Virus record (IMG/VR): IMGVR_UViG_3300025289_000026
Location: 14,503 to 78,502 of that record
DNA length: 64,000 nucleotides
Source of the DNA: a virus
Strand: one strand, 5' to 3'
Shown: one piece after another, positions 36,103-59,097 of the stretch
Position numbering within the stretch: the first letter of the stretch is position 1
Layout: each line of letters begins with the position of its first letter
The notes under the pieces: model-generated
What the model was told of the DNA's origin: nothing
Databases searched by the model: none
The model's input: only the letters and a program-made list of their open reading frames with translations
Position numbers and translations under genes: made by a program

Positions 36103-39100
36103 CTATTTCGCCGCAGACCACGTAGTTGCGTATTTCGCACTTACCTTCAGGGGCACCCGCCAATCGATGTGACTCATCGATGCCTCCATGTGGTTCACAA
36201 TGATGATCTTGGCTTCTTCGGCGTGCTGGTCCGGTACTTCTTCCACGACTTCGTCGTGAACCTGGAGCACGAGATCCGCCCCCATGGTCTTGAGCACTGG
36301 ATCGTTCGTGATCGCGGGCATGTAGTAGCGCATCAGGTCTGCTGCGGAGTTGTGAGTGATGACCCCGTTGACCATAAATCGTCCAGTGTCGCTGTTGACT
36401 ACATCGAACATCTCGATGTATTCTTCAGTTTCTGTTACGCTACGGACAATCTCTACCCTGCCGAAGGCTTTGGACACGTTGTCATTCGCGAGTAGGCTCA
36501 GCGCCTTTGCATTCTTCGCAGGGTTCAGGAATCCGATCTGTTGTACAAATTTATGGAGATCGCGAGTGCGTAATCGTACGAGTGTTCTATCGACGTAGGT
36601 ATGGACTCGACTTTCGATGCCAAACAACAACAGTGCTTGCTGTATCTCTTCGGCGTAAGTTCTGAATCTTCCGCCTTGCCCGAATGTAAGGGCGATAGTT
36701 TTGCCTGTCACGCCACCATCGCCATCAAACATTCCCCGTAAGAATCCACGCAACAATTCAGAATCTTTGAATATCTCCGCTGGAATGCCATTCTTAAGGT
36801 TTAGTTCGGTGGCTTGACGTGCCAGGACAGCGGAGTCCAGATTGAGTATGTGCATGGGTAATTTGTTGGGGCGCTGACGTGTACAGAGTCTATACCGTAG
36901 CCCTGCGGTGCTCAGGCAGTCCAGCATGTAGGGAAGGATACTGATCTCGTGCTCCGCTACCAGCCAGGTCAAGGCTTTATTTCGAACGATAGTTCCGTCT
37001 GAGGCCAATCTACCCAGCATGATCCCTAGAGCTAGAGGATTCTGTATGGCGCTGAGTGATATTCTTTTTGCGTTGCCGACACCATTCGGAGCTTTCCGGT
37101 GTGTCCTTAGTGTGGGTTTCGGAAGTTCTACATGACCATGAAACTTTACTGCATGGGCAAGTTTGATGCGCTCTATTGGTGCAAATTCTAGTGCGGTTCT
37201 AAAGCGTTCCGATCCAACTTCGTTAACCGTAAGGAATTTGTGCTCAGGGCTACAGATGATTCGATTACCAGATGCAAATTCAACGAGTATTTTCTTTTTC
37301 ATACCGGAAGCGATCACCACCGCGCCGACAAAGGCGTTACCATCCCATATCCTTACCGATCTATTGACGAGCGACTTGATAGGAACGTAGCCGTGACCTT
37401 CGACCAATACCCTGGAGTTTCCCTCAACACAGCCCTGGATGATGGCGTTGAAGAGCTGGCGCTCCGCTTTGGAGGAAGCCCGTATGTTGTTGGACCAGAT
37501 CTCCGGCAGCCGTCGGCGCCTGTTCAGCAGCGTGAGGACAAACCCATTGGCCTTGCAGAAACCTGTGTGATACTTCTTGGCCTGGAGTATCCCAGGGAAT
37601 GTTTTGAAGAACAGGTCGATGATCGCTCTGGCTTCCTCAAGCGTAACCCCAAGGTTGGCGGCCAATCGTTTGTCCCCCATGCCGTACAGGATGCCGAAGA
37701 GCAATGTCTTGGCCGACTTGCGGCACGCCAACATCTTCTTTTGTGCGGACGTCAGGACACCACCCGACTCCTTGAGAACCTTGGCCTCGAGGATGTCCTC
37801 GTACTTGAGGTCAAACAGGCTCGCGGCCGTGTAGGCGTGGAGGTCGCGGCCCTCTAGCAACACCTTGATCAAATTCTCATCACCCGATATCTGGGCCGTG
37901 AGCAAGACCTCCAGTTGGCTGAAATCCGCCACCACGAGGGATCTGCCCTCCGGGGCCTTGAAGGCAATCCGGATATCGTACTGCTGGATGCGCTCGTCTT
38001 CCGATGGGTTCTCGACGTTCTGTAGATTTGGTGAGGCAGAACTGGTACGTCCGGTCCGAGTCCCGGTGACGCGAAACTGACAATGGACTCGTCCGTCACT
38101 CTTGATATGGCTGGACAAGCCCTCGACATATGTGCTCAACAGCTTGCTGAGTTTCCGGTGCTCCAACAGGGGGGTAATGTCATCGGGGTAGTCTTCCTCC
38201 AGGATTTCGAGTGCCTCTTTTTTGTACGAGGCCTTCCGTATCCCGCTGGCCCCGCCATCCGTGTACTTGACGATCGGCATCCCGATGGTCTCGTGGAACA
38301 ACCGGTGTAGCTGGTCACTGGAGTTTAGGTTGATGACATGGCCTGCCCGCTGGGTGTAGAAGTTCTCAATCTCCTGAATCCTTGATTTCAAAGGAGCTTC
38401 GTACCGTTTGAGCGCATGGGCCTCGACGCAGGCGCCGTTGTGCTCCATCGTCCAGATGGACTTGACATACGGTTCCTCCATCTCGATGTAGTAGTCCCAA
38501 AGGGATTTGCCGTCTTGCCATACCTGCTCCTCAAGCCGACGCTTGAGTTCGTAAAAAAGCAGCAAGGTGGCGTAGGGATCGGTGGCCGCGTAGTCTAGGA
38601 ATACTTCTCGTTTGGTCTCCATGGCCCACTCGGCCGGCGACAGGTTGATCCCCTTGGGCGGTTTCTTAAACAGGGTGCTGAATGGCTTCATCCCGTGGAT
38701 TAATCCGTAATCTCCGCAACATTCCTTGAGTCCATGACGACCGTACCGGTTCTCATCCACCAGGTGATCCATCACCAGGGTGTCGAACACCCGGGCACGG
38801 AATCCCGGGCGAACCCTCCAGGTGCGCCAACAGATGTGGGCGTCGTAGGGGTAGTTGTGGGCAATGACGTCAACCCCAACGCAGTCGAGCATCGAGACCA
38901 ACGGGACCGCGACCACGGGGTTGGGTTCGAATACCAGGCGGGACCCTTGCGCAAGATCGAACAATTGGTCACCCCATTGGGGTCTCCAGGGTGTCTTGGG
39001 AACGCTCAAGGACACCAGGACGTTGCGGGCGACGTGGGGATCCTCACTCGTGGTTTCGGTATCGAACGCCACGATCCCCAGGTCGCGGATCACCTGGGAC

Positions 39101-39165
39101 AAGACCAAAGCCTCGGCCTCAGTCTTGATTTCGATGTATGGTAGAAGGGAGTGAAATTTTGGCAT
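36103..39165 (-). CDS. polA: Family A DNA polymerase with 3'-5' exonuclease, intein-containing
   Basis: FDTET, HNxxYD, YAATD; TGRTSS..PNLQN; DFSQLE; RxxAKxxxFGILYG; VHDE. Confidence 0.95.
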   Translation of the reverse strand: MPKFHSLLPYIEIKTEAEALVLSQVIRDLGIVAFDTETTSEDPHVARNVLVSLSVPKTPWRPQWGDQLFDLAQGSRLVFEPNPVVAVPLVSMLDCVGVDVIAHNYPYDAHICWRTWRVRPGFRARVFDTLVMDHLVDENRYGRHGLKECCGDYGLIHGMKPFSTLFKKPPKGINLSPAEWAMETKREVFLDYAATDPYATLLLFYELKRRLEEQVWQDGKSLWDYYIEMEEPYVKSIWTMEHNGACVEAHALKRYEAPLKSRIQEIENFYTQRAGHVINLNSSDQLHRLFHETIGMPIVKYTDGGASGIRKASYKKEALEILEEDYPDDITPLLEHRKLSKLLSTYVEGLSSHIKSDGRVHCQFRVTGTRTGRTSSASPNLQNVENPSEDERIQQYDIRIAFKAPEGRSLVVADFSQLEVLLTAQISGDENLIKVLLEGRDLHAYTAASLFDLKYEDILEAKVLKESGGVLTSAQKKMLACRKSAKTLLFGILYGMGDKRLAANLGVTLEEARAIIDLFFKTFPGILQAKKYHTGFCKANGFVLTLLNRRRRLPEIWSNNIRASSKAERQLFNAIIQGCVEGNSRVLVEGHGYVPIKSLVNRSVRIWDGNAFVGAVVIASGMKKKILVEFASGNRIICSPEHKFLTVNEVGSERFRTALEFAPIERIKLAHAVKFHGHVELPKPTLRTHRKAPNGVGNAKRISLSAIQNPLALGIMLGRLASDGTIVRNKALTWLVAEHEISILPYMLDCLSTAGLRYRLCTRQRPNKLPMHILNLDSAVLARQATELNLKNGIPAEIFKDSELLRGFLRGMFDGDGGVTGKTIALTFGQGGRFRTYAEEIQQALLLFGIESRVHTYVDRTLVRLRTRDLHKFVQQIGFLNPAKNAKALSLLANDNVSKAFGRVEIVRSVTETEEYIEMFDVVNSDTGRFMVNGVITHNSAADLMRYYMPAITNDPVLKTMGADLVLQVHDEVVEEVPDQHAEEAKIIIVNHMEASMSHIDWRVPLKVSAKYATTWSAAK
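36349..37431 (-). mobile_element. Canonical intein with LAGLIDADG endonuclease in PolA (361 aa)
   Basis: IIQG|CVEG...SPEH...LGRLASDG...LRGMFDGDG...THN|SAAD; lower GC than flanks. Confidence 0.93.
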
Positions 39166-50262: not shown

Positions 50263-53200
50263 GTGGCATACTTTACAACTGAGGAATCCGACGGTCACGC
50301 TAAAGACGCGGTAGAACGGGCGATCAAAGAAGTCTTCACCGACATAACCGTGGGGGACAAGACCTTGCGGCTTGACGGTGTGCAGGTAGACCAGCGGCTT
50401 GACCCCCAGGATTACGAATCTCAGCGCCAAACCAAGTTGAAATCAGGGGTCTGGGGGATGTCGGTCTCGGGGCTGTTCTCGCTGTTGGATCAAAATGGAA
50501 AGGTCAAGGACACGGGTCGGGTCAAGCTCATGACCTTGCCGCAGAAGACTGCTCGCCATACCTTCATCTTTGGAGGCCAGGAGTATCAATTCGATACTCA
50601 GTTTCGACTCAAGCCAGGGATATACACCCGGGTGACGGACGCGGGAGAGTTTGCCTCCAGGATTTCGGCCGAGGGGAAATATTACCGCAATACCGAAATA
50701 TTCTTTGATCCCCAGACCAAGGTCTACACCCTTGGGGTAGGGACTTCCCACGTACCCCTCGCGACCCTGTTGGATCTCATGGGGGTGTCGGTCCAAGAGC
50801 TTGAACTTGCGGTCGGCAAGGAGGTCGCAACCGCGAACCTGGGGAAGGCGAAGCCCGGGGACTACAGCAAGCTCTACAAGGCGTTGTTCGACCTGGACCC
50901 TGGACCTAAACCGGATTACCAGGTGATCGTCCAGGCGCTCCATGACAGCAAGCTTGATCCTGATGCCACCGAGTACACCACGGGCATGAGGTTATCTTCG
51001 GTCGACAAGACCGCGATCCTCACGACCATGAAGAAACTGTTCAAGCTGGTCAGAGGGGAGACAGAGGAGGATGACCCCAACAGCCTGGTGACCAAGTCGG
51101 TCCATTACTACGAGGACTATCTTCGTGAGTGGATCCTGAAACATGGAAGCGAAGTACGGCGAAAGATTTCCAACAAATTGCCTCACGCCAATAAGGTGGA
51201 GGATACGATCTCGACCTCCATCCTGATGCCGGCGATCGGGAAGCTCTTTACCGCGACCCCGTTGGCTCAACGGCGCGAACAGCACAATGTCGTAGACATT
51301 CTGTCGGGTACCGGCAAGACAACGCTCCGGGGTCCCGGGGGGATATCAGACCCCAACATGATTCGGGACGACATGAGGACGATCCATTCGTCCCACATGG
51401 GGTTCTTGGACCCGATCAAGACACCGGAAGGTTCGACCATCGGGACAACCTTGTTCTTGTCTTCGTTGGCCAGGAAGCGGGGCAACGAACTGGTCGCGAC
51501 CTTCATGGACGTGAAGACTGGCAAGGAGGTGGACCTCACGCCCAAACAAGTGTTCGACACCGTGGTGGCGTTCCCTGACGAGTATGACTTTGAGGTCAAG
51601 CCACCGAAGGCAAAATCCAGCAAGGTGATGGCTTCCCACCGGGGTGACGTGCGAGACTACCCGCCATCCGAGGTTCAATACGTCCCAGCTTCCCAGGCGG
51701 GACTGTTCCACCACACGACCAACCTGATCCCTTTTCTTCGATCGAACAACGGCGTCAGGGCCATGACGGCGTCTCGTCAGATCGAGCAGGCCATCTCCTT
51801 GACCCATCGGGAAGCCCCCCTGGTACAACTGAAGTACGGTCGCTCCGATTCGACCGCTGAGCAGGGGTTCGGTCGCTACCTTGGGGCCAGCCTCAGTCTA
51901 GTGGATGGTGAAGTTTCGTCTGTCCGGCAAGGCAAAATCATCGTGAAGGACAAGGCCGGGGCTTCCTCGGTAGTCAACACGTATCGAGATTTTCCACTCA
52001 ACAACTCCAAGGGGTACATCAACTCCGAGGCCTTGGTATCCGTGGGGGATAAGGTGAAGAAGGGTCAGGTGTTGGCCGATACCAATTACACGAAGAACGG
52101 GACCCTTGCCCTTGGGACGAACCTTCGGGTCGCGTACGTCCCGTGGAAGGGCCTGTTGTTTGAGGATGCCTTGGCCATCAGCGAGTCCGCAGCCACCAAG
52201 CTGACTAGCGATCATCTCCACCAGTTCGTCGTGGAGTTGGGGGAGAAGTCGATCTCGGGTCGAGACAAATTCCGTAACTATTTTCCCAACAACATCTCCC
52301 ATGCCCAGTCCCAGAAATTAGACTCCGACGGCGTCATCACGGTGGGGCAGGAAGTCAGCCGAGGGGATTACCTCTACGCGGGAATGTTTGAGAAAGAAGT
52401 TGATCCGGACAGCGAAGCGATCCTTCGGGTCGGGACCCGGGCGTTCCAATCGTTCGGTGACTCCTCGATCCAGTGGGAGAAAGATTACCCCGGGGTCGTG
52501 ACCGCGGTGGAGAAGTTCGCCAAAAAGTACATCGTCCACGTGAAGACCAAGGAACCGGCCGTCGAAGGAGACAAGCTGGTTGGGCGCCACGGGAACAAAG
52601 GGATCATCAGCAAGATTGTCCCGGATGCCGAGATGCCCCATGACCTCGAGGGCAAGCCATTCGAAATCCTGATGAACCCCGCGTGTTACGACGACAAGAC
52701 AGAAGTTTTGACAGAAAATGGGTGGTTGCCTTTCTCACAGGTTAGTCAAGGCGACGTCGTAGCGTCTATGCATCCAAACGGAGAGTTAGTATATGAAAGT
52801 GTGCTGGCAGTTCATCGAAGTTTTTATGTTGGGCCAATGTACAGGATCAAGAATAAAAAACTTGACCTTATGGTAACGCCAAACCATAGGATGTACACGC
52901 GAAAAGGAGACAGCAATGAGAAATCGCCGTATGAAATCAATGAAGCGAAGAAAATTTTTGGCCAGCGGCGCTACTACTTAAAGAATTCTGAAAAATGGGT
53001 GGGTAGTTCTGCAGAGGTTGTGCGCTTCGGAGAACCTGAAGATCGTGATGGTACTGGGCCAAAAGCCGACCCAAGAAAACTGGAAATAGCCCCCAGTGAA
53101 TTTGCCGAGTTCCTAGGAGTGTTCATCGCCGAAGGCTGGGCGTGTAGGCGAGAGGGTGGCATCTATGATGTGGGTTTAAGTCAGTCACAGAGATTGAATC

Positions 53201-56200
53201 CAGATAAATGCGTGGAGATCGAACGCTTTTTGGCTCTATTACCGTGGTCGTTTTCCAGGCGTGAAAGAGACAACGGTCAAGTTGAGTGGACTGCACGAAA
53301 TAGGGAATTATGCCTTTGGCTCATGGAACATGTGGGCACAGGGGCCAAGAACAAACGTATACCACGCCAGGCACTGGCGTGGCCGAGCGCTACCTTAGAA
53401 TTACTGCTTAACGGGCTCATGCTGGGCGATGGATCGACACGAAATTCACCTCAAACGTCCCACTACGACAACCGGAGGTATTTTACGGCCTCGAAAGGTC
53501 TGGCGGACGACGTGCAGGAACTTGCGCTTAAGCTTGGTGTTTCTGCACAGATAACGACACAAATTAGTTGTTTCAGAGAAACCGTTACGGATATCTTTGT
53601 GGTCAGTTTTTTGAAACGGTCAACACCTTCTGTTAATTGGCCAGGGAAAAAACATGCACAAGTGGAAAAGTGGGTACATTACGAAGGCGATGTATTCTGC
53701 TTGACTGTTCCCAGCGGGCTACTGTATGTTCGTAGGAATGGTGTGCCAGTATGGTCTGGTAATTCTGTCGTCGGGCGTGTGAACCTGGGGCAAGTGTACG
53801 AGACCCTCGTGGGCAAGGTGGCGGCCAAGACGGGGAACCCCGTGGTGGTGGACAACTTCGCCTCCGAGCAAGACAACCATAAGTACGTGGCCGACATGTT
53901 GAAGAAGCATGGGCTTCAAGATCGCGAAATCGTGGTGGATCCGGTCGACGGACCCACGGAAAACCCGGTGCTCACGGGCAACCAATACATCTTTAAGTTG
54001 ACCCATCAGGTTGATAAGAAGCTATCGGCTCGAGGGGCAGTGTCCAAGACCACGGGGGAAAGGCTCCAGTACACGGGTGACAAGATTCCATCGAAGGGCG
54101 GTTCCGAAGGTGGCCAATCGATCGGTATCCTCGACACCTACGCCCTGTTGGCCAACGGGGCAACGGCGAACCTCAAGGAGATGTTCTCGTACAAGGGGGA
54201 CGCTCAGAATGCTTTGTTTTGGTCAACATTGAAGAACGGAGGTGTCTTGCCGGCCGCCGAGGTGCCGTTCACCGCAACCAAGTTTCTCGCGCTCCTGGAA
54301 GCCATGGGGGTACATGTCAAGAAGGATGGCAATTCGCTCCAACTGCTCCCCATGACGGATCGAGACATCGAGACCATGTCGGCCGGCGAATTGAAGAACC
54401 CCGGCCAGGCGCTCGACGCGAAGCTCCGGCCGTACCAAGGGGGTATCTTCGATTCCCAACGGACCGGTGGGCTCCATGGCAAGAAGTACACCCACATGAA
54501 CCTCCCGTTCCCCGTGGTCAACCCGGTGACGCGGGACGGTGCCGTCAGGCTGTTGGCCTACCACCATCCCGATCACGGCGGAACCCTTGTGGACAAGATT
54601 CTCGAGGGGCACCTGGGGTTGAATAAGAAAGGCGATATCGTCCCGGTCGTTGAAGCCACGGTCGTGGGGGGTGCGGCGGTGCAGAACCTGTTGGCCCGGA
54701 TCGACGTGGACAAGAGCCTCAAGACCGTGGAACAGGATCTCGAGACCGCGGCACCGTCGAATGTCAACACGATCAACAAGACCCGCAAGTACCTCAAGGC
54801 CTTGAAGGAGTTGGGCTACACGGCCGACCAGGCCTACTGCCTTACCAAATTTCCCGTGCTGCCACCGTTGTTCCGCCCCATCGTGGTGAATAAGAACGGG
54901 ACCATCAGCAACGAGGATATCAATGAACTGTATCGTAAGCTCGGGGAGACGATCGAGGCGGTGAACCAAGGGGATAAGAAGTTACCTCCCGAAATGATGG
55001 CCCAGCGGTCTGCCGCGATCCAGGACATGGTCGACGCTGTCGCGATCTCGGGGTACAGCGCCCACAACCGAACGATGAAGGGGGTGATGCAGTTGATCTC
55101 GGGCACGAGCCCGAAGTACGGATTCTACCAGAAGAAGGTATTGAAGCGTCGGCAAGACCTCAGCGCCCGCAGCACCATCGTGCCGAACCCCGAGCTCGAC
55201 GTCGACACCATCGAGGTGCCGGACAAGGCCCTATGGGAACTGTTCGGCCCGTTCGTCACCCGGTCGCTCGTGCAGTCGGGATATCCGGTCGCCAAGGCGG
55301 CGGAGCATGTGAAGGACAAGACCGAGGTAGCCAAGACCGCGCTGCTCAACGAGCTAAAGGATCGTCCCGTCCTGATGAAACGAGATCCTGTGCTCCACAA
55401 GTTTGGTATCCAGGCGTTCCATGCGAAATCTTCGTCCGGCAACACGATTCGGATTCCCCCGAGCGTGACGACGGGATATGGGGCAGATTTCGATGGGGAC
55501 CAAATTTTGGACACTGTTGTTGTATTTGCAACGGATTCGGTTTTGTGCCAGCATATACTGGAACAAGGAGCCGAAGACATGACTGCACGTTTGAAAACTG
55601 TGTTACCGACGATGGACATCCACGGGATGGTGTTCCTGTTAGACTTGCAGGATTTTCCTCACGGTGAATTGATTGGAGCTAAGCAAGGAGAAAAGGGTCC
55701 CATCGAGTTCTACGCGGTGCCCAATGGAGTTTACGTTCTAGCCTTAGATGAGACTGTCGGCGCACTGGTGTGGTCACCCGTGACCGTATGGTCGAAGCAT
55801 CTGGATCGTGAAATAGAGATCATCACACTGGCATCTGGACGACAGATCGTATCGGACGACGATCCCCGTGCGGTCTACGGAATGGCCGCTGGTACGTTAC
55901 TTTACGGACGCTTTCAACCTGCTACCGCAGTCGAGTCTCGGGTGCTGGTTCCTCGAGGCCAGCGCTTAAGCATCCCTGAAATACTACACAATGCATTCAC
56001 AGGGGCGGAGAACTCTAATAGGCCTCGATCACACCAAGTATTTCCGGAAGTTGTACTGACAGAGAAACTCGGTTATTTCCTTGGGGCTGCCGCTGGCGAT
56101 GGATGGGTTTCTTCTATAGATCAGATCTGCCTAGCATCGATAGATGATGATGTGGTACTCCGGTTTGCCGAAGGCCTCGCGGAGATGATGCAGACAGGGC

Positions 56201-59097
56201 TTGTGCCTTTTAGTCTCGCGCACGTCACCACATCCTACGGTGAAAGCCGAAGAGCCTCGTTTTCTGCGAGTAGTGCTGGCAAAGTTCTCGCGGGATGGAT
56301 TGGAAAAGGTGCGGAGAACAAACACTTGCCTCCGTTCTTTTTGACATCTCCATTGGAATTTAGAAGGGGCTTGTTCGCGGGGTTGATGGATACCGACGGA
56401 TCGATTTCGGTTTCTACAGCTAAAAGCAAGCCTCAGTTGATGTCCAATTTTACGAGCATCAGTTTGCGCCTGGTTCGTGAGGTACTGTTATTAGCGGCGT
56501 CACTAGGAGTACGTGGACGTATCACGGCTTTTAAGTCGTCCTCTACAGGTAAGCCCTCATGGATAGTTAGCTTCTCAAACTACGATGTCAAGAGGTGGGG
56601 CGGCGCAGGTATGGCGTGCTCACATAAACTGGAGCTATTACGTTCAATCGAGATAGGGATTACCCCATCTCTCGTGCGCCACGATCTTGTTCCTATCTCT
56701 GTTTCCTTGGCCCAGCACATCTACAAAAGTATTCCTATGGAACGCAGCGCCCCGCAGGCTCGCAAGAATGCGTATTTCAACTTTAACAAGGCAGCGAAAG
56801 AAGGCTATGTAACACGAGATGCTGCTGAACGAGTCACATCTTACGTGTCAATAAATCAGATTGTGGCCCACCCCGATGGCGCTCTGTGGTGGAACATCGT
56901 CCAGCAGACGGATGTTACGTGGGACATGGTGGAATCCGTGGAGGTCACGGGTATTCGGGAGACGGGTTACGACCTCACGGTCCCGGGGCACGAGACCTTT
57001 ATGAACGTCGAGGGTGTCGTGCTGTCCAACACCGTATCGGTCTACGTCCCGGCCACCGAGGCGGCGAAGGAAGAGGCCAAGGGTCTCGTCCCGAGCCGGA
57101 ACCTCTTCGGCGTGAAGTCCGGATCCCTGATGCACAAGCCCCAGCATGAGCAGCAGTTGGGGCTTTACCTGTTGACCGAGGAGGGGAGGAACACAAACCA
57201 GGTGTTCCAAAGTTTCGACAAATTGATGGAAGCGTATGGCCGTCGACAGGTTCGCCTCCAGGACGTCGTGACCTTTGGGGGGCGCAAGACGACCTTAGGA
57301 CGCCTCCTGGTGGCCAACGCGATCCCCATGGGTCGTCTACATGACGACTGGTACCAGAAGATCGCGTACGACCGAAAATTCCGTCTGGACAAACATCAGG
57401 TCAACAGCCTGATGGTCCAGGTGGGCAAGACCCAGCCGGCCGATTTCCCCCAGTTCCTCACGACCATGCGGCAACTGGGGGACAAGGCTGCCTTTACCCT
57501 CGGGGCGTCGGTCAGCATGGCGGATCTCAAGCCGATGAAAGATTTGGCCAAGCATCTTCCCAACGCCACGGACTCGGTCCGCCGGATCGAACAGTACAGC
57601 ACGGCCCGTGATAAGGTCGAGCACGAGGCCAAGCGCCGGCTCTCGGCCCAGGACAACGGGTTGTACAAGACCGTTGTCTCGGGTGCCCGGGGGACATTCG
57701 ACCAGTTGAAGCAGATTGTCTTATCGCCTGGCATGATTTCAACGGAGGCGGGCCGCGTGGCCCCCAAGCCGATCAACCGGTCGTATGCCGAAGGCTTGAA
57801 ACTCGGGGACTACTGGACCACACTCCACGGGGCTCGGCTTGGCATGATCTCGAAGTCCCGCGGGACCGCGCTCCCGGGGTACCTGTCCCGCCAGATCATC
57901 AGCACGGTGGCAGATGCCCGGGTTACCACGGAAGATTGCCAGACGAGCCAGGGGATATACGAGGATGTGAAGAGTCGTGACATCATCGGGCGTTACCTGG
58001 CCAAGGCCCAGAAGATCGGGAACAAGTCAGTAGCTAAGGACACTCTTGTGGATGGCACGGTCGTGATGTCGGCCCGCAACGCAGGGGTATCGAAACTGTT
58101 GGTCAGGACTCCGTTGAAATGTGAAGCTCATGATGGCATCTGTGCCAAGTGTTTTGGCCGGTGGCACGACGGTAACGATCCGTCCGTCGGTACCAACATC
58201 GGGGTGATCAGTGGCCAGTCCCTTGGGGAACCCACGACCCAGTTGTCCATGAAGCTGTTTCATGAAGGCGGCGTGGCATCCAAGGCTTCGAAACTCGTGG
58301 ATCAGTTCGCCGTGGCCGAGACCCTGCTGAAAGCGCCGCTTCGTCTTAAGGACGAGGCCGTCCTGAGCCAGGTGACCGGTACCGTGACATCGATCAACAA
58401 GACCGCGACCGGATGGAAGGTCTTCGTTGGGACCAAGGAACAATTTGTCCCGGCGTCCAGGACCCTGGAGGTTAAGGTTGGGACCAAGGTTCAACAAGGG
58501 GACAAGATTTCGTCTGGTCAGGTGAATGTCCACCAGCTCGCCAGCCTCGCGGGCATTGGGGCCGCGCAGAACCACATGGTAGGGTCTCTCCACGAACTCT
58601 ACGGACCCCTTGGGGTTGACAAGCGCCACATCGAAACGGTGGTGCGCCACATGACTGACCTCGGGGTGGTGGATCAGGCCGACGGTGCCTCGGGGTTCGG
58701 GCGTGGTGATGTCGTCTCGATGGCCAAGATCGAGGCGTTCAACCGCCGCTACATGGCGCCCGACTGGGCCATTGGAAAAAAACTGGCGGAGAAGTACCTC
58801 AAGTATGGCCGTGGCACCGAGGTGACGGACCTGGTGGCCAAGGACCTCAAGGATCACAATATCAATAGGGTCAAGATTGAAGATGGCGGGGCTGTCAAGG
58901 CCAACCCAATGATCCGGGGGGTCAACACCATGCCCTTGATCCGGACGGATGATTGGGCAGCCAAGATGTCGTTCGAGCGACTCCGCGGCACCATGGAGAC
59001 CGGGGTCCTGACGGCCGCGAAGGCCGACATAGCGGGTCGGTGGCCCCTGCCGTCCATCGGGTTCGGCAAGATTCAAGATCCCAAAACAGCAGGGTAA
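50263..59097 (+). CDS. rpoBC: Single-chain fused beta-beta' DNA-directed RNA polymerase with two inteins
   Basis: Beta motifs GPGG, TPEG, FED, GDKLVGRHGNKG, KLTH; beta' motifs PVLPP..RP, RDPVLH, GADFDGD, SGARG, GYLSR, GEPTTQL..FH; one continuous frame. Confidence 0.96.
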   Translation: MAYFTTEESDGHAKDAVERAIKEVFTDITVGDKTLRLDGVQVDQRLDPQDYESQRQTKLKSGVWGMSVSGLFSLLDQNGKVKDTGRVKLMTLPQKTARHTFIFGGQEYQFDTQFRLKPGIYTRVTDAGEFASRISAEGKYYRNTEIFFDPQTKVYTLGVGTSHVPLATLLDLMGVSVQELELAVGKEVATANLGKAKPGDYSKLYKALFDLDPGPKPDYQVIVQALHDSKLDPDATEYTTGMRLSSVDKTAILTTMKKLFKLVRGETEEDDPNSLVTKSVHYYEDYLREWILKHGSEVRRKISNKLPHANKVEDTISTSILMPAIGKLFTATPLAQRREQHNVVDILSGTGKTTLRGPGGISDPNMIRDDMRTIHSSHMGFLDPIKTPEGSTIGTTLFLSSLARKRGNELVATFMDVKTGKEVDLTPKQVFDTVVAFPDEYDFEVKPPKAKSSKVMASHRGDVRDYPPSEVQYVPASQAGLFHHTTNLIPFLRSNNGVRAMTASRQIEQAISLTHREAPLVQLKYGRSDSTAEQGFGRYLGASLSLVDGEVSSVRQGKIIVKDKAGASSVVNTYRDFPLNNSKGYINSEALVSVGDKVKKGQVLADTNYTKNGTLALGTNLRVAYVPWKGLLFEDALAISESAATKLTSDHLHQFVVELGEKSISGRDKFRNYFPNNISHAQSQKLDSDGVITVGQEVSRGDYLYAGMFEKEVDPDSEAILRVGTRAFQSFGDSSIQWEKDYPGVVTAVEKFAKKYIVHVKTKEPAVEGDKLVGRHGNKGIISKIVPDAEMPHDLEGKPFEILMNPACYDDKTEVLTENGWLPFSQVSQGDVVASMHPNGELVYESVLAVHRSFYVGPMYRIKNKKLDLMVTPNHRMYTRKGDSNEKSPYEINEAKKIFGQRRYYLKNSEKWVGSSAEVVRFGEPEDRDGTGPKADPRKLEIAPSEFAEFLGVFIAEGWACRREGGIYDVGLSQSQRLNPDKCVEIERFLALLPWSFSRRERDNGQVEWTARNRELCLWLMEHVGTGAKNKRIPRQALAWPSATLELLLNGLMLGDGSTRNSPQTSHYDNRRYFTASKGLADDVQELALKLGVSAQITTQISCFRETVTDIFVVSFLKRSTPSVNWPGKKHAQVEKWVHYEGDVFCLTVPSGLLYVRRNGVPVWSGNSVVGRVNLGQVYETLVGKVAAKTGNPVVVDNFASEQDNHKYVADMLKKHGLQDREIVVDPVDGPTENPVLTGNQYIFKLTHQVDKKLSARGAVSKTTGERLQYTGDKIPSKGGSEGGQSIGILDTYALLANGATANLKEMFSYKGDAQNALFWSTLKNGGVLPAAEVPFTATKFLALLEAMGVHVKKDGNSLQLLPMTDRDIETMSAGELKNPGQALDAKLRPYQGGIFDSQRTGGLHGKKYTHMNLPFPVVNPVTRDGAVRLLAYHHPDHGGTLVDKILEGHLGLNKKGDIVPVVEATVVGGAAVQNLLARIDVDKSLKTVEQDLETAAPSNVNTINKTRKYLKALKELGYTADQAYCLTKFPVLPPLFRPIVVNKNGTISNEDINELYRKLGETIEAVNQGDKKLPPEMMAQRSAAIQDMVDAVAISGYSAHNRTMKGVMQLISGTSPKYGFYQKKVLKRRQDLSARSTIVPNPELDVDTIEVPDKALWELFGPFVTRSLVQSGYPVAKAAEHVKDKTEVAKTALLNELKDRPVLMKRDPVLHKFGIQAFHAKSSSGNTIRIPPSVTTGYGADFDGDQILDTVVVFATDSVLCQHILEQGAEDMTARLKTVLPTMDIHGMVFLLDLQDFPHGELIGAKQGEKGPIEFYAVPNGVYVLALDETVGALVWSPVTVWSKHLDREIEIITLASGRQIVSDDDPRAVYGMAAGTLLYGRFQPATAVESRVLVPRGQRLSIPEILHNAFTGAENSNRPRSHQVFPEVVLTEKLGYFLGAAAGDGWVSSIDQICLASIDDDVVLRFAEGLAEMMQTGLVPFSLAHVTTSYGESRRASFSASSAGKVLAGWIGKGAENKHLPPFFLTSPLEFRRGLFAGLMDTDGSISVSTAKSKPQLMSNFTSISLRLVREVLLLAASLGVRGRITAFKSSSTGKPSWIVSFSNYDVKRWGGAGMACSHKLELLRSIEIGITPSLVRHDLVPISVSLAQHIYKSIPMERSAPQARKNAYFNFNKAAKEGYVTRDAAERVTSYVSINQIVAHPDGALWWNIVQQTDVTWDMVESVEVTGIRETGYDLTVPGHETFMNVEGVVLSNTVSVYVPATEAAKEEAKGLVPSRNLFGVKSGSLMHKPQHEQQLGLYLLTEEGRNTNQVFQSFDKLMEAYGRRQVRLQDVVTFGGRKTTLGRLLVANAIPMGRLHDDWYQKIAYDRKFRLDKHQVNSLMVQVGKTQPADFPQFLTTMRQLGDKAAFTLGASVSMADLKPMKDLAKHLPNATDSVRRIEQYSTARDKVEHEAKRRLSAQDNGLYKTVVSGARGTFDQLKQIVLSPGMISTEAGRVAPKPINRSYAEGLKLGDYWTTLHGARLGMISKSRGTALPGYLSRQIISTVADARVTTEDCQTSQGIYEDVKSRDIIGRYLAKAQKIGNKSVAKDTLVDGTVVMSARNAGVSKLLVRTPLKCEAHDGICAKCFGRWHDGNDPSVGTNIGVISGQSLGEPTTQLSMKLFHEGGVASKASKLVDQFAVAETLLKAPLRLKDEAVLSQVTGTVTSINKTATGWKVFVGTKEQFVPASRTLEVKVGTKVQQGDKISSGQVNVHQLASLAGIGAAQNHMVGSLHELYGPLGVDKRHIETVVRHMTDLGVVDQADGASGFGRGDVVSMAKIEAFNRRYMAPDWAIGKKLAEKYLKYGRGTEVTDLVAKDLKDHNINRVKIEDGGAVKANPMIRGVNTMPLIRTDDWAAKMSFERLRGTMETGVLTAAKADIAGRWPLPSIGFGKIQDPKTAG
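52684..53763 (+). mobile_element. Intein 1 (360 aa, LAGLIDADG) in the beta part of RNAP
   Basis: LMNPA|CYDD...TPNH...LGVFIAEG...LNGLMLGDG...WSGN|SVVGR; lower GC than flanks. Confidence 0.92.
55501..57030 (+). mobile_element. Atypical intein 2 (510 aa, LAGLIDADG) immediately after the catalytic DFDGD
   Basis: GADFDGD|QILD...LGAAAGDG...FAGLMDTDG...YDLTV..VLSN|TVSVYVP. Confidence 0.88.

What the first reader, a model, noticed from the sequence alone, without database searches (positions are those of the whole stretch)
55501..57030. Intein in the RNAP catalytic loop that fits no described splicing class (Gln1, no block-B His, Ser-Asn end, Thr+1)
Seen: removing 55501-57030 restores GADFDGD-TVSVYVP, in exact register with bacterial NADFDGD-QMAVHVP, so the insert must begin with Gln (CAA). 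The block-B position reads IVSDDDPRAV rather than TxxH. Block F is YDLTV (Asp, not Cys). The insert ends VLSN|T, and both LAGLIDADG motifs look intact. Known: class 1 inteins need Cys/Ser/Thr at position 1; class 2 (KlbA) use Ala1, the block-B His and Cys+1; class 3 use a block-F Cys (WCT triad). Inference: the insert abuts an Mg-binding Asp of a probably essential enzyme and keeps its frame, so it likely splices by an undescribed chemistry (for example direct Thr+1 attack aided by the DDD patch or the Asp at -1). Alternatively it undergoes only C-terminal cleavage and yields a split active site.
Basis: partly seen in the sequence, partly recalled or inferred. Interest (0 to 1): 0.92.

Follow-up and report, generated by a model that had tools for sequence, protein, structure and literature searches.

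The report
Nucleophile-less intein in phage RNA polymerase
A self-excising protein insert (intein) sits directly after the magnesium-binding DFDGD loop of a phage RNA polymerase and belongs to a large, strongly conserved clade that lacks the first-residue nucleophile and all three helper histidines of textbook inteins, so it probably splices by a route not yet shown for any intein.

Summary
Window 55501-57030 encodes a 510-aa HINT + LAGLIDADG insert in a 2944-aa single-chain beta-beta' RNA polymerase of a soil phage. It reads GADFDGD|Q...SDDDPRAV...GYDLTVPGHETF...VLSN|T.

It is not a decayed copy or an assembly error. About 200 distinct homologues carry the same insert at the same site. Residue 1 is free (Q about 42%; Cys/Ser only 6%; at least 50 changes on a 115-tip tree). 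These residues are invariant or nearly so: block-B Asp (replacing His), block-F Asp and Glu (Glu replacing His), penultimate Ser, terminal Asn, Thr+1 and an "NX" His. Synonymous codons show selection at the amino-acid level.

Intein-less relatives read DFDGD-[T/Q/A/K/S]-M, which fixes the register. Other inteins at the same site all start with Ser/Cys/Thr.

New here:
- The clade carries the class 2 (KlbA) hallmarks: a non-nucleophilic residue 1, Ser at G:6 and Asp at F:4.
- Naturally split members exist.
- A conserved internal ribosome-binding site and start codon (window ATG 55579) lies at that split point.

The most likely mechanism, which is inferred and not shown, is direct attack of Thr+1 on the N-terminal amide.

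The scan noted this clade before on other DNA. I found no description in the searched literature.

The parts
50263..59097 (+). Host gene: single-chain beta-beta' RNA polymerase, 2944 aa as a precursor and 2074 aa after removal of both inteins.
   Evidence: ORF list and translation. Pfam Rpb2_3/6 and Rpb1_1/2/4/5. Intein-less homologues are 2050-2100 aa long.
55486..55500 (+). N-extein end: the DFDGD Mg-binding motif. Asp1746 is residue -1.
   Evidence: D.DGD precedes the insert in every full-length homologue.
55501..57030 (+). The intein: 510 aa, a HINT splicing domain with an inserted LAGLIDADG homing endonuclease.
   Evidence: Pfam. AF2 pLDDT 83.6. Foldseek matches to HE-inteins. Same insert in 115 homologues plus about 95 further 50%-identity cluster representatives.
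55501..55530 (+). Block A equivalent, QILDTVVVFA. Gln1 (CAA 55501-55503) occupies the position of Ser1/Cys1 in sister inteins.
   Evidence: Alignment with sisters P0164, P0170, P0134 and P0169. Residue 1 in 115 copies: Q52 E16 A13 D9 C5 L5 and others. At least 50 changes on the tree.
55565..55581 (+). Internal ribosome-binding site AAGGAG (55565-55570) and in-frame ATG (55579-55581; intein codon 27, MTARLK). This is the position where the IntC gene starts in split relatives.
   Evidence: Across 39 distinct loci this codon is ATG 33, GTG 5, TTG 1. An SD-like 4-mer lies upstream in 32/39, against 13% at other in-frame ATGs. In proteins the residue is M73/V12/L5. Split forms.
55645..55662 (+). 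LQDFPH motif (L49 114/115, P53 115/115), shared with the canonical sister inteins.
55789..55800 (+). WSKH: the NX motif (S98 114/115, K/R99 61/115, H100 115/115).
   Evidence: Motif definition from PMC10189870.
55837..55881 (+). Block B, GRQIVSDDDPRAVYG. B:7 is Ser118 (T98/S14 in the clade). B:10 is Asp121 (115/115) where other inteins have His. Arg123 is 115/115.
   Evidence: B:10 codons GAC 30 / GAT 18. Sister inteins read xxDH here.
56068..56106 (+). LAGLIDADG motif 1, LGYFLGAAAGDGW (the acidic residue D200 is present; in the clade D81/N33).
56368..56403 (+). LAGLIDADG motif 2, GLFAGLMDTDGS (D297 115/115, D299 109/115).
   Evidence: Pfam LAGLIDADG_3 covers residues 286-354..
56965..57000 (+). 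Block F, GYDLTVPGHETF. F:4 is Asp491 (115/115). The usual F:13 His position is Glu498 (113/115).
   Evidence: phmmer alignment to block F of the Ssp DnaB mini-intein 1mi8.
57013..57030 (+). Block G, GVVLSN. G:6 is Ser509 (115/115) and G:7 is Asn510 (115/115).
   Evidence: Ser codons TCN 43 + AGY 5; Asn codons AAC 26 / AAT 22.
57031..57051 (+). C-extein start, TVSVYVP. Thr+1 (57031-57033) is the presumed ligation nucleophile.
   Evidence: T+1 in 114/115 copies. Codons ACC 18, ACG 17, ACA 11, ACT 2. Intein-less alleles have T/Q/A/K/S here.

Best explanation
This is a functional, horizontally mobile intein. It belongs to a large clade that lives only at the DFDGD|T site of phage single-chain beta-beta' RNA polymerases.

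The clade descends from Ser1/Thr+1 'oxyester' class 1 inteins that still occupy the same site in other phages. It has given up the position-1 nucleophile and replaced all three assisting histidines: B:10 His to Asp, F:13 His to Glu, and G:6 His to Ser. It keeps the NX-motif His, Thr/Ser at B:7, Asp at F:4, the terminal Asn and Thr+1.

The most likely splicing route is the class 2 type, in four steps:
1. The Thr+1 hydroxyl attacks the Asp(-1)-Gln1 amide directly. It is activated by His100 and/or the carboxylates Asp121, Asp491 and Glu498, and positioned by the Ser-Asn end as in KlbA inteins.
2. This forms the block-G branched ester.
3. Asn510 cyclises and releases the intein.
4. An O-to-N shift gives ...GADFDGD-TVSVYVP....

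Shown here: the anatomy, the fold, family-wide conservation and codon-level selection, the extein register, mobility signals, the existence of split forms, and the internal start signal.

Inferred: that splicing happens at all (about 0.75), and that the first step is direct Thr+1 attack (about 0.4).
For: 1. The insert is real. No differences in contigs of 4 runs; the ORF is uninterrupted; the HINT + LAGLIDADG fold is modelled with pLDDT 83.6 and matches TliVMA, PI-PkoII and PI-PfuI inteins.

2. The clade is large. 886 50%-identity clusters match at E<=1e-3 and 249 at E<=1e-30. All 115 + 83 copies with a readable N-junction follow D.DGD.

3. Residue 1 is unconstrained. Cys/Ser occurs in 12/198 copies, and residue 1 changes at least 50 times on a 115-tip tree. 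In contrast, D121, R123, H100, D491, T499, S509 and N510 are 115/115, and T+1 is 114/115.

4. Selection acts on the amino acid. T+1 uses all four ACN codons, Ser G:6 uses TCN and AGY, and Asn and Asp each use both of their codons.

5. T+1 is needed only when the intein is present: 114/115 with the intein against 30/54 without. C-terminal cleavage alone would not require it.

6. Covariation. 37/37 non-clade inteins at the same site start with Ser/Cys/Thr, and most keep the block-B His.

7. Class 2 hallmarks. All KlbA inteins have a non-nucleophilic residue 1 and Ser G:6, and they need Asp F:4 (PMC4031507). This clade has all three.

8. The NX His, typical of oxyester inteins, can make the block-B His dispensable (PMC10189870).

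9. Mobility, and so function on arrival. Intein GC is 0.48-0.54 against 0.57-0.62 in the exteins. Intein identity exceeds C-extein identity in 66/66 pairs. The nearest RNAPs lack the intein.

10. Split relatives, one without an endonuclease, keep every catalytic residue.
Against: No protein-level evidence exists: no spliced product and no intermediate has been seen.

Alcohol attack on an unactivated amide without a neighbouring-group effect has not been shown for any intein. Class 2 inteins use Cys+1 and require His B:10, which is Asp here.

I could not obtain coordinates of the model, so I measured no distances between Thr+1, His100, Asp121 and the scissile bond. The residues around both junctions are of low confidence (pLDDT <50 for model residues 1-17 and 527-540).

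The one endonuclease-free split lineage has Cys1, so it does not prove that split members with a non-nucleophilic residue 1 trans-splice.

The conserved internal start shows that part of the biology is not explained by simple cis-splicing.

The Fisher tests treat related sequences as independent.
Confidence: 0.45

Rival explanations
1. Class 3-like route with an internal oxygen nucleophile. A conserved Ser/Thr of the intein attacks the N-terminal amide first and forms an extra branched ester, which is then passed to Thr+1. Candidates are the clade-specific penultimate Ser509, or Ser98 beside His100, Thr493 or Thr499.
For: Ser509 is 115/115 and is encoded by both Ser codon families. It is specific to this clade; sisters have Y/F/Q/W/H there. 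Ser98-x-His100 is near-invariant. Class 3 inteins show that an internal branch point can replace residue 1 (PMC2807308).
Against: None of the three class 3 signature positions is met: B:12 is Arg, F:4 is Asp and G:5 is Leu. Ser98, Thr493 and Thr499 are also present in the sisters that carry a nucleophile, so they are not linked to loss of residue 1. Ser at G:6 is explained equally well by the class 2 analogy.
Confidence: 0.15
2. Asp(-1) anhydride route. The side chain of the last DFDGD aspartate attacks its own carbonyl, releases the intein N-terminus and leaves a cyclic anhydride. Thr+1, or the freed C-extein amine, then opens the anhydride. A metal bound by the extein and block-B aspartates may assist.
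For: Every clade member found sits after D.DGD, so residue -1 is always Asp. The active site is unusually rich in carboxylates: D119, D120, D121, D491 and E498. From my own knowledge, not checked here: Ca-dependent Asp-Pro self-processing modules of RTX proteins cleave and re-link through such an anhydride.
Against: Asp(-1) is fixed by the polymerase itself, so its conservation is uninformative. Canonical sister inteins at the same site also have Asp(-1) yet keep Ser1/Cys1. Anhydride opening could give an isoaspartyl link in the catalytic loop. There is no precedent in inteins.
Confidence: 0.08
3. No ligation. The element only cleaves (Asn cyclisation, with or without N-terminal hydrolysis). 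The polymerase then works as two non-covalent pieces, or the full-length precursor is not the functional form and the internally initiated IntC-beta'C product matters instead.
For: There is no position-1 nucleophile. A conserved internal RBS and start lies at intein codon 27. Relatives encode the two halves as separate genes. In one split lineage the gene carrying IntC ends only 86 residues after the intein, which suggests that these RNAPs tolerate breaks elsewhere.
Against: Thr+1 is invariant only when the intein is present, and cleavage alone does not need it. A split gene would have no reason to keep an endonuclease-free intein with all splicing residues intact. After C-cleavage alone, a 510-aa domain would remain attached directly to the Mg-binding Asp. 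Amide hydrolysis at an intein N-junction is not known as an on-pathway reaction (PMC2807308).
Confidence: 0.1
4. A decayed, non-splicing intein remnant or a sequence artefact. The polymerase gene is dead or dispensable.
For: Four canonical features are missing at once: residue 1, His B:10, His F:13 and His G:6.
Against: The same substitutions are invariant in about 200 diverged copies and are maintained through synonymous codon changes. The sequence is identical in independent assemblies. The host ORF and both other inteins of this phage are intact.
Confidence: 0.02

Closest known systems
Class 2 inteins (Methanococcus jannaschii KlbA intein and its orthologues)
   Same: A non-nucleophilic residue 1; Ser at G:6 instead of His; terminal Asn; Thr/Ser at B:7; Asp at F:4. 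The +1 residue is the only junction nucleophile available (features of class 2 from PMC4031507; features here).
   Different: The +1 residue is Thr, not Cys. B:10 is Asp, not the His that class 2 requires. Residue 1 is variable (mostly Gln), not Ala. The host is a phage RNAP, not KlbA. The clade arose independently from Ser1 inteins at this site. No sequence match to KlbA was found.
Class 1 Ser1/Ser+1(Thr+1) 'oxyester' inteins with the NX-motif His (PolB16 OarG, PI-PkoII/TkoII), and the Ser1/Cys1 sister inteins at the same DFDGD site (e.g. P0170, P0164, P0296-P0332)
   Same: Same insertion site; same HINT + LAGLIDADG architecture; the LxDFP, S-x-H (NX) and YDLT blocks; an oxygen nucleophile at +1. 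In PolB16 the block-B His is dispensable and the NX His critical (PMC10189870; alignment; Foldseek hit to PI-PkoII 2cw7).
   Different: The sisters always have Ser/Cys/Thr at position 1 (37/37), mostly keep His B:10, and end in Asp or His-Asn. This clade has a nucleophile at position 1 in 6% of copies, Asp at B:10, Glu at F:13 and a Ser-Asn end.
Class 3 inteins (mycobacteriophage Bethlehem DnaB intein)
   Same: Phage origin; a non-nucleophilic residue 1 that covaries with other active-site positions; Thr+1 (PMC2807308).
   Different: The defining Trp(B:12)-Cys(F:4)-Thr(G:5) triplet is Arg-Asp-Leu here. The block-B His that class 3 needs is absent.
Atypically split inteins with a very short N-fragment (PolB16 OarG, 15-aa IntN; PMC10189870)
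   Same: Relatives of this intein are encoded as an N gene ending in DFDGD plus 13-57 intein residues, and a separate gene starting with the rest of the intein. The window's cis copy has an RBS and ATG at that same point.
   Different: The window copy is contiguous. Several split relatives start with Gln, Leu or Phe rather than Ser or Cys. A conserved internal start inside a contiguous intein is, to my knowledge, not described.

Membership tests
Intein (HINT splicing domain with inserted LAGLIDADG endonuclease) | HINT fold with blocks A, B, F and G flanking an endonuclease domain, inserted in frame at a conserved site of a host protein. | tested here: met
   Pfam LAGLIDADG_3 and Intein_splicing. 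AF2 pLDDT 83.6. Foldseek matches to TliVMA, PI-PkoII and PI-PfuI inteins, E 1e-18 to 1e-17. Removal restores the host sequence exactly.
Intein (any class) | C-terminal Asn (or Asp/Gln) followed by Cys/Ser/Thr at +1. | tested here: met
   VLSN|T in the window. Asn is 115/115 and Thr+1 114/115 in the clade.
Intein (any class) | Protein splicing demonstrated (ligated exteins plus free intein). | not testable with these tools
   No protein data. Only indirect comparative evidence.
Class 1 inteins | Cys, Ser or Thr at residue 1 that forms the linear (thio)ester. | tested here: not met
   Gln1 (CAA 55501-55503), confirmed in independent contigs. Only 12/198 clade members have Cys or Ser.
Class 1 inteins | Block B Thr-x-x-His. 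| tested here: not met
   SDDD in the window. B:10 is Asp in 115/115.
Class 2 (KlbA) inteins | Non-nucleophilic residue 1 (Ala) together with Ser at G:6. | tested here: met
   Gln1, and Ser509 in 115/115. The criterion is from PMC4031507. Residue 1 is not Ala (Ala occurs in 13/115).
Class 2 (KlbA) inteins | Cys+1 as the attacking nucleophile. | tested here: not met
   Thr+1 in 114/115 copies and Ser in 1; never Cys.
Class 2 (KlbA) inteins | His B:10 and Asp F:4 required; orthology to KlbA inteins. | tested here: not met
   Asp F:4 is present (115/115), but B:10 is Asp. The host is RNAP, and the nearest relatives are Ser1 inteins at the same site.
Class 2 (KlbA) inteins | Direct attack of the +1 residue on the N-terminal amide (the mechanistic definition). 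| not testable with these tools
   Needs mutagenesis and trapping of the intermediate.
Class 3 inteins | Trp B:12 - Cys F:4 - Thr G:5 triplet. | tested here: not met
   Arg123, Asp491 and Leu508, all invariant or nearly so. The criterion is from PMC2807308.
Oxyester inteins with NX motif | Conserved His, preceded by Lys/Arg, in the strand before block B. | tested here: met
   WSKH at 55789-55800. His100 is 115/115 and K/R99 61/115. The motif is from PMC10189870. Equivalence rests on sequence position, not on measured geometry.
LAGLIDADG homing endonuclease (active) | Two LAGLIDADG helices, each with the catalytic acidic residue. | tested here: met
   Asp200 and Asp299 are present in the window copy. 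Activity was not tested.

The most novel reading that the evidence does not exclude
The clade represents a fourth mechanistic type of protein splicing. It uses no thiol and is independent of residue 1, and its active site has exchanged all three assisting histidines for Asp, Glu and Ser. The N-terminal amide is broken either by Thr+1 activated in a serine-protease-like His-carboxylate arrangement, or through an Asp(-1) anhydride or metal-assisted step that is possible only at the DFDGD site. In addition, the conserved internal RBS and start would make a contiguous intein also express its large C-fragment fused to the C-extein. That would be a built-in half-way state between cis and split inteins.
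Probability: 0.3. Interest if true: 0.9.

Novelty: new variant of a known kind. Interest (0 to 1): 0.8.

Why it matters
Three splicing mechanisms are recognised, and the two that do without a position-1 nucleophile (class 2 and class 3) are each thought to have arisen once (PMC4031507). This clade would be a further, independent loss of that nucleophile. It would be the first without any cysteine and without the block-B histidine.

About 200 natural variants already show which positions matter, so it is directly testable. If it splices, it gives:
- a natural experiment on how an alcohol can be made to attack an amide in the HINT fold;
- new cysteine-free cis inteins and atypically split inteins (IntN 13-24 aa) for protein engineering under oxidising conditions;
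- an example of an essential phage enzyme whose catalytic loop must be rebuilt after translation.

The internal start codon raises a new question: how do intein endonucleases or intein fragments get expressed independently of the host protein?

Tried and rejected
- **Shifted junctions.** An intein starting at residue 2 would leave DFDGD-Q and make the loop one residue longer than in every intein-less homologue. Residue 2 is not a nucleophile either (Q77, C9, T4 of 115). Rejected.
- **Gln1/Gln2 glutarimide cleavage.** Residue 1 is Ala, Leu, Phe, Lys or Gly in many members. Rejected as a general mechanism.
- **Single decayed copy or sequencing error.** Rejected.
- **tblastn of the intein against 50,697 GenBank phage records.** No match. 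This says nothing about cultured relatives beyond that set.
- **Literature.** Five full-text searches found no description of an intein at the DFDGD site of a phage RNAP, and none of a fourth class. The library is incomplete, so this is absence of evidence only.
- **Sequence search of solved structures.** It gave only a weak block-F match to DnaB mini-inteins.
- **RNA evidence.** No RNA holder was listed among the sequencing runs.
- **Complex prediction.** I tried it for the split halves (L055 N-piece + L046 IntC) but it was not available.
- **The look-up of encoding contigs.** It was closed. Extra DNA came from the metagenome scan instead.
- **align_proteins.** It failed with 115 and with 77 whole proteins, so the model rests on a 26-row alignment.
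- **Model coordinates.** They are not exposed, so no active-site distances could be measured.
Full report
**What is there.** The window is part of a 78.5-kb IMG/VR virus record, estimated 43% complete. It carries phage genes: baseplate J, family A DNA polymerase, DnaB-like helicase and a RecA-like protein.

ORF 50263..59097 (+) encodes 2944 aa with Pfam domains of both RpoB (Rpb2_3, Rpb2_6) and RpoC (Rpb1_1, 2, 4, 5), so it is a single-chain beta-beta' polymerase. It holds two HINT + LAGLIDADG inserts.
- The first, at 52684-53763, is canonical: Cys1, block B TPNH, end GN|S.
- The second is the finding, nt 55501-57030 (510 aa).

WSKH ... GRQIVSDDDPRAVYG ... two LAGLIDADG motifs ... GYDLTVPGHETFMNVEGVVLSN | TVSVYVP.

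**Is it real, and is the register right?** Contigs from four public soil and sediment runs, two of them not flagged as a possible source, match 55201-57300 without a single difference.

Intein-less homologues of the polymerase, 2050-2100 aa long, include the two closest ones (P0122 and P0123, 58-59% identical over the C-extein). They read DFDGD followed by one residue (T, Q, A, K or S) and then M/I-x-x-[FYH]-V-P. So the insert starts directly after the third Asp and ends at Asn before Thr. The precursor minus both inteins is 2074 aa, the length of P0122.

An AlphaFold2 model of the insert with 15 flanking residues each side has mean pLDDT 83.6. It matches endonuclease-containing inteins best: TliVMA 7qss (E 1e-18), PI-PkoII 2cw7 and PI-PfuI 1dq3. 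Block F aligns to that of the Ssp DnaB mini-intein, which places Asp491 at F:4 and Glu498 at the usual F:13 His.

**It is a family, not a decayed copy.** A word-indexed search with the junction region returned 163 fused polymerases, and the 120 listed all carry the insert. An exhaustive phmmer search of 1.84 billion 50%-identity cluster representatives gave 886 hits at E<=1e-3 and 249 at E<=1e-30.

In 115 extracted inserts, 496-649 aa long:
- Residue 1 is Q52, E16, A13, D9, C5, L5, K3, N3, M2, S2, H2, G2, F1.
- The end is LSN in 114, and the +1 residue is Thr in 114.
- Invariant (115/115): Pro53, His100, Asp121 (B:10), Arg123, Asp491 (F:4), Thr499, Phe500, Ser509 (G:6) and Asn510.
- Nearly invariant: Ser98 (114), Asp119 (114), Glu498 (113) and Thr493 (113). 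Position 118 (B:7) is Thr 98 / Ser 14.

A further 83 cluster representatives (one per 50%-identity cluster) with a readable N-junction show the same pattern. On a tree built without the first four residues, residue 1 changes at least 50 times. The other catalytic positions change not at all or, for Thr+1, in a single copy.

In 48 DNA loci from IMG/VR, synonymous codon use shows selection on the amino acid:
- Thr+1: ACC 18, ACG 17, ACA 11, ACT 2.
- Ser G:6: TCN 43 and AGY 5.
- Asn: AAC 26, AAT 22.
- Asp B:10: GAC 30, GAT 18.

Thr at the +1 position is found in 114/115 intein-bearing alleles but only 30/54 intein-less alleles (relatedness is ignored in that test). C-terminal cleavage alone would not need it.

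**Where the clade comes from.** The same site is occupied in other phage polymerases by different inteins. 37 of 37 of these start with Ser (28), Cys (7) or Thr (2). Most keep xxDH in block B, and they end in Asp or His-Asn. They share LxDFP, S-x-H and YDLT with the clade studied here. The clade is therefore a derivative of Ser1/Thr+1 inteins in which four changes go together:
- loss of the position-1 nucleophile (12/198 against 37/37);
- His to Asp at B:10;
- His to Glu at F:13;
- a Ser-Asn end.

**Mobility.** Both polymerase inteins have lower G+C (0.42-0.54) than the exteins (0.57-0.62). The intein is more similar to its relatives than the C-extein is in 66 of 66 pairs (median 39% against 30%). 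The nearest polymerases have no intein. Both catalytic Asp of the endonuclease are present. This fits arrival by homing, which an insert unable to leave the catalytic loop would not survive. That last step is inference.

**Comparison with the known classes.**
- Class 1 needs a nucleophile at position 1 and normally the block-B His. Neither is met.
- Class 3 is defined by Trp B:12, Cys F:4 and Thr G:5 (PMC2807308). Here these are Arg, Asp and Leu.
- Class 2 is the closest. According to the review PMC4031507, all class 2 inteins are KlbA orthologues with Ala1 and Ser at G:6. Their Cys+1 attacks the N-terminal amide directly. They need Thr B:7, His B:10 and Asp F:4. A rearrangement of the Ser-Asn-Cys backbone is thought to bring the +1 residue to the scissile bond.

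The clade here shares four of these features: the non-nucleophilic residue 1, Ser G:6, Thr/Ser B:7 and Asp F:4. It differs in three ways: Thr+1, Asp at B:10, and no relation to KlbA.

The invariant His100 sits where the NX motif of oxyester inteins lies. In the PolB16 OarG intein that His is critical while the block-B His is dispensable (PMC10189870).

My best reading is therefore a class 2-type route with oxygen chemistry. Thr+1 would be activated by His100 and the carboxylates, attack the Asp(-1)-Gln1 amide, and be followed by Asn cyclisation and an O-to-N shift. None of this chemistry is shown. I could not measure distances because model coordinates are not exposed, and the junction residues are modelled with low confidence.

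**Split relatives and an internal start (new here).** In several loci the polymerase is encoded in two genes broken inside the intein.
- The N gene ends DFDGD + FQVSRVIV... (24 aa, L033), + QQIGSV... (57 aa, L037/L038), or + LQINSVFV... (21 aa, L044/L045).
- The next gene, in another frame, starts with Met about 20 residues before LxD[FIV]P and runs through TDDDPR, GYDLTVPG and LSN|T.
- In a complete 173-kb genome the C-piece is an endonuclease-free mini version (L046). The N gene lies several kb away and ends DFDGD + CQWGHVFVCLRDS (L055).

The contiguous copies carry a conserved motif [M/V/L]-[TSA]-A-R-F-K-E at the same position, 20-24 residues before LxDFP. It is present in 91 of 190 distinct proteins, with M73, V12 and L5.
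- At the DNA level its first codon is ATG 33, GTG 5, TTG 1 in 39 distinct loci. GTG is 28% of Val codons and TTG 17% of Leu codons in these genes, so the chance product is 3e-4.
- An SD-like 4-mer lies 4-18 nt upstream in 32/39, against 13% at other in-frame ATGs.
- In the window this is AAGGAG 55565-55570 and ATG 55579.

A first-stage note on this window (e1-6102953) had pointed to this ATG, and the comparative data support it as a selected start. Its role is open. It could express the endonuclease independently, or it could be a built-in route to split forms. It explains why independent split events all break at this point.

**Verdict.** The insert is a member of a large, apparently undescribed intein clade that fails the signatures of all three classes. 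It is closest to class 2 in logic and to Ser1/Thr+1 oxyester inteins in descent.

My estimates: splicing about 0.75; direct Thr+1 attack about 0.4; an internal Ser/Thr branch 0.15; an Asp(-1) anhydride or metal-assisted step 0.08; cleavage only 0.1.

The scan has noted the same clade on other DNA (e1-5347419 with a follow-up; e1-5941748, e1-5948882, e1-6084373, e1-6084384). I found no paper describing it in five searches of the held library.

Noticed in passing
window 55565-55581: Conserved internal Shine-Dalgarno (AAGGAG) and in-frame ATG at intein codon 27. Across relatives this codon is only ATG, GTG or TTG, with an SD-like sequence upstream in 82%. It coincides with the start of the IntC gene in split relatives. 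Its function is unknown: independent expression of the endonuclease or C-fragment is one possibility.
   Followed up: yes
L033:1-3549, L037/L038, L044/L045, L046-L053 with L055-L057: Naturally split versions of this intein with very short N-fragments (13-57 aa). Their first residues are Phe, Gln, Leu or Cys. One lineage lacks the endonuclease and has its two genes several kb apart in a complete 173-kb phage genome. They are candidate new atypically split inteins.
   Followed up: partly
window 52684-53763: A second intein in the same polymerase, in the beta part after LMNPA. It is 360 aa with Cys1, block B TPNH and end GN|S, so it is canonical class 1 with a penultimate Gly. Its G+C falls to 0.42-0.53.
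   Followed up: partly
window 36349-37431 (minus strand): The family A DNA polymerase (36103-39165, minus strand) carries a 361-aa canonical intein: Cys1, SPEH, HN|S, with a LAGLIDADG domain. This phage fragment therefore holds three inteins.
   Followed up: partly
window 50263-59097: Single-chain beta-beta' RNA polymerase of about 2074 aa after splicing. It is common in uncultured phages with contigs up to about 215 kb, and I did not find it among GenBank phage records with the intein query. Whether it is packaged in the virion was not examined.
   Followed up: no
P0134, P0164, P0169, P0170, P0296-P0332 (other phage RNAPs): The DFDGD|[TS] site is an intein hot spot. At least two other intein lineages sit there, most ending in a C-terminal Asp instead of Asn and all starting with Ser, Cys or Thr. 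A few have Asn or Asp instead of the block-B His while keeping Ser1.
   Followed up: partly
P0329, P0334, P0335: A divergent group at the same site starts with Gln (QNLSLIV), has ETETF in block F and ends RSN|T. It may be a deep branch of the nucleophile-less clade.
   Followed up: no
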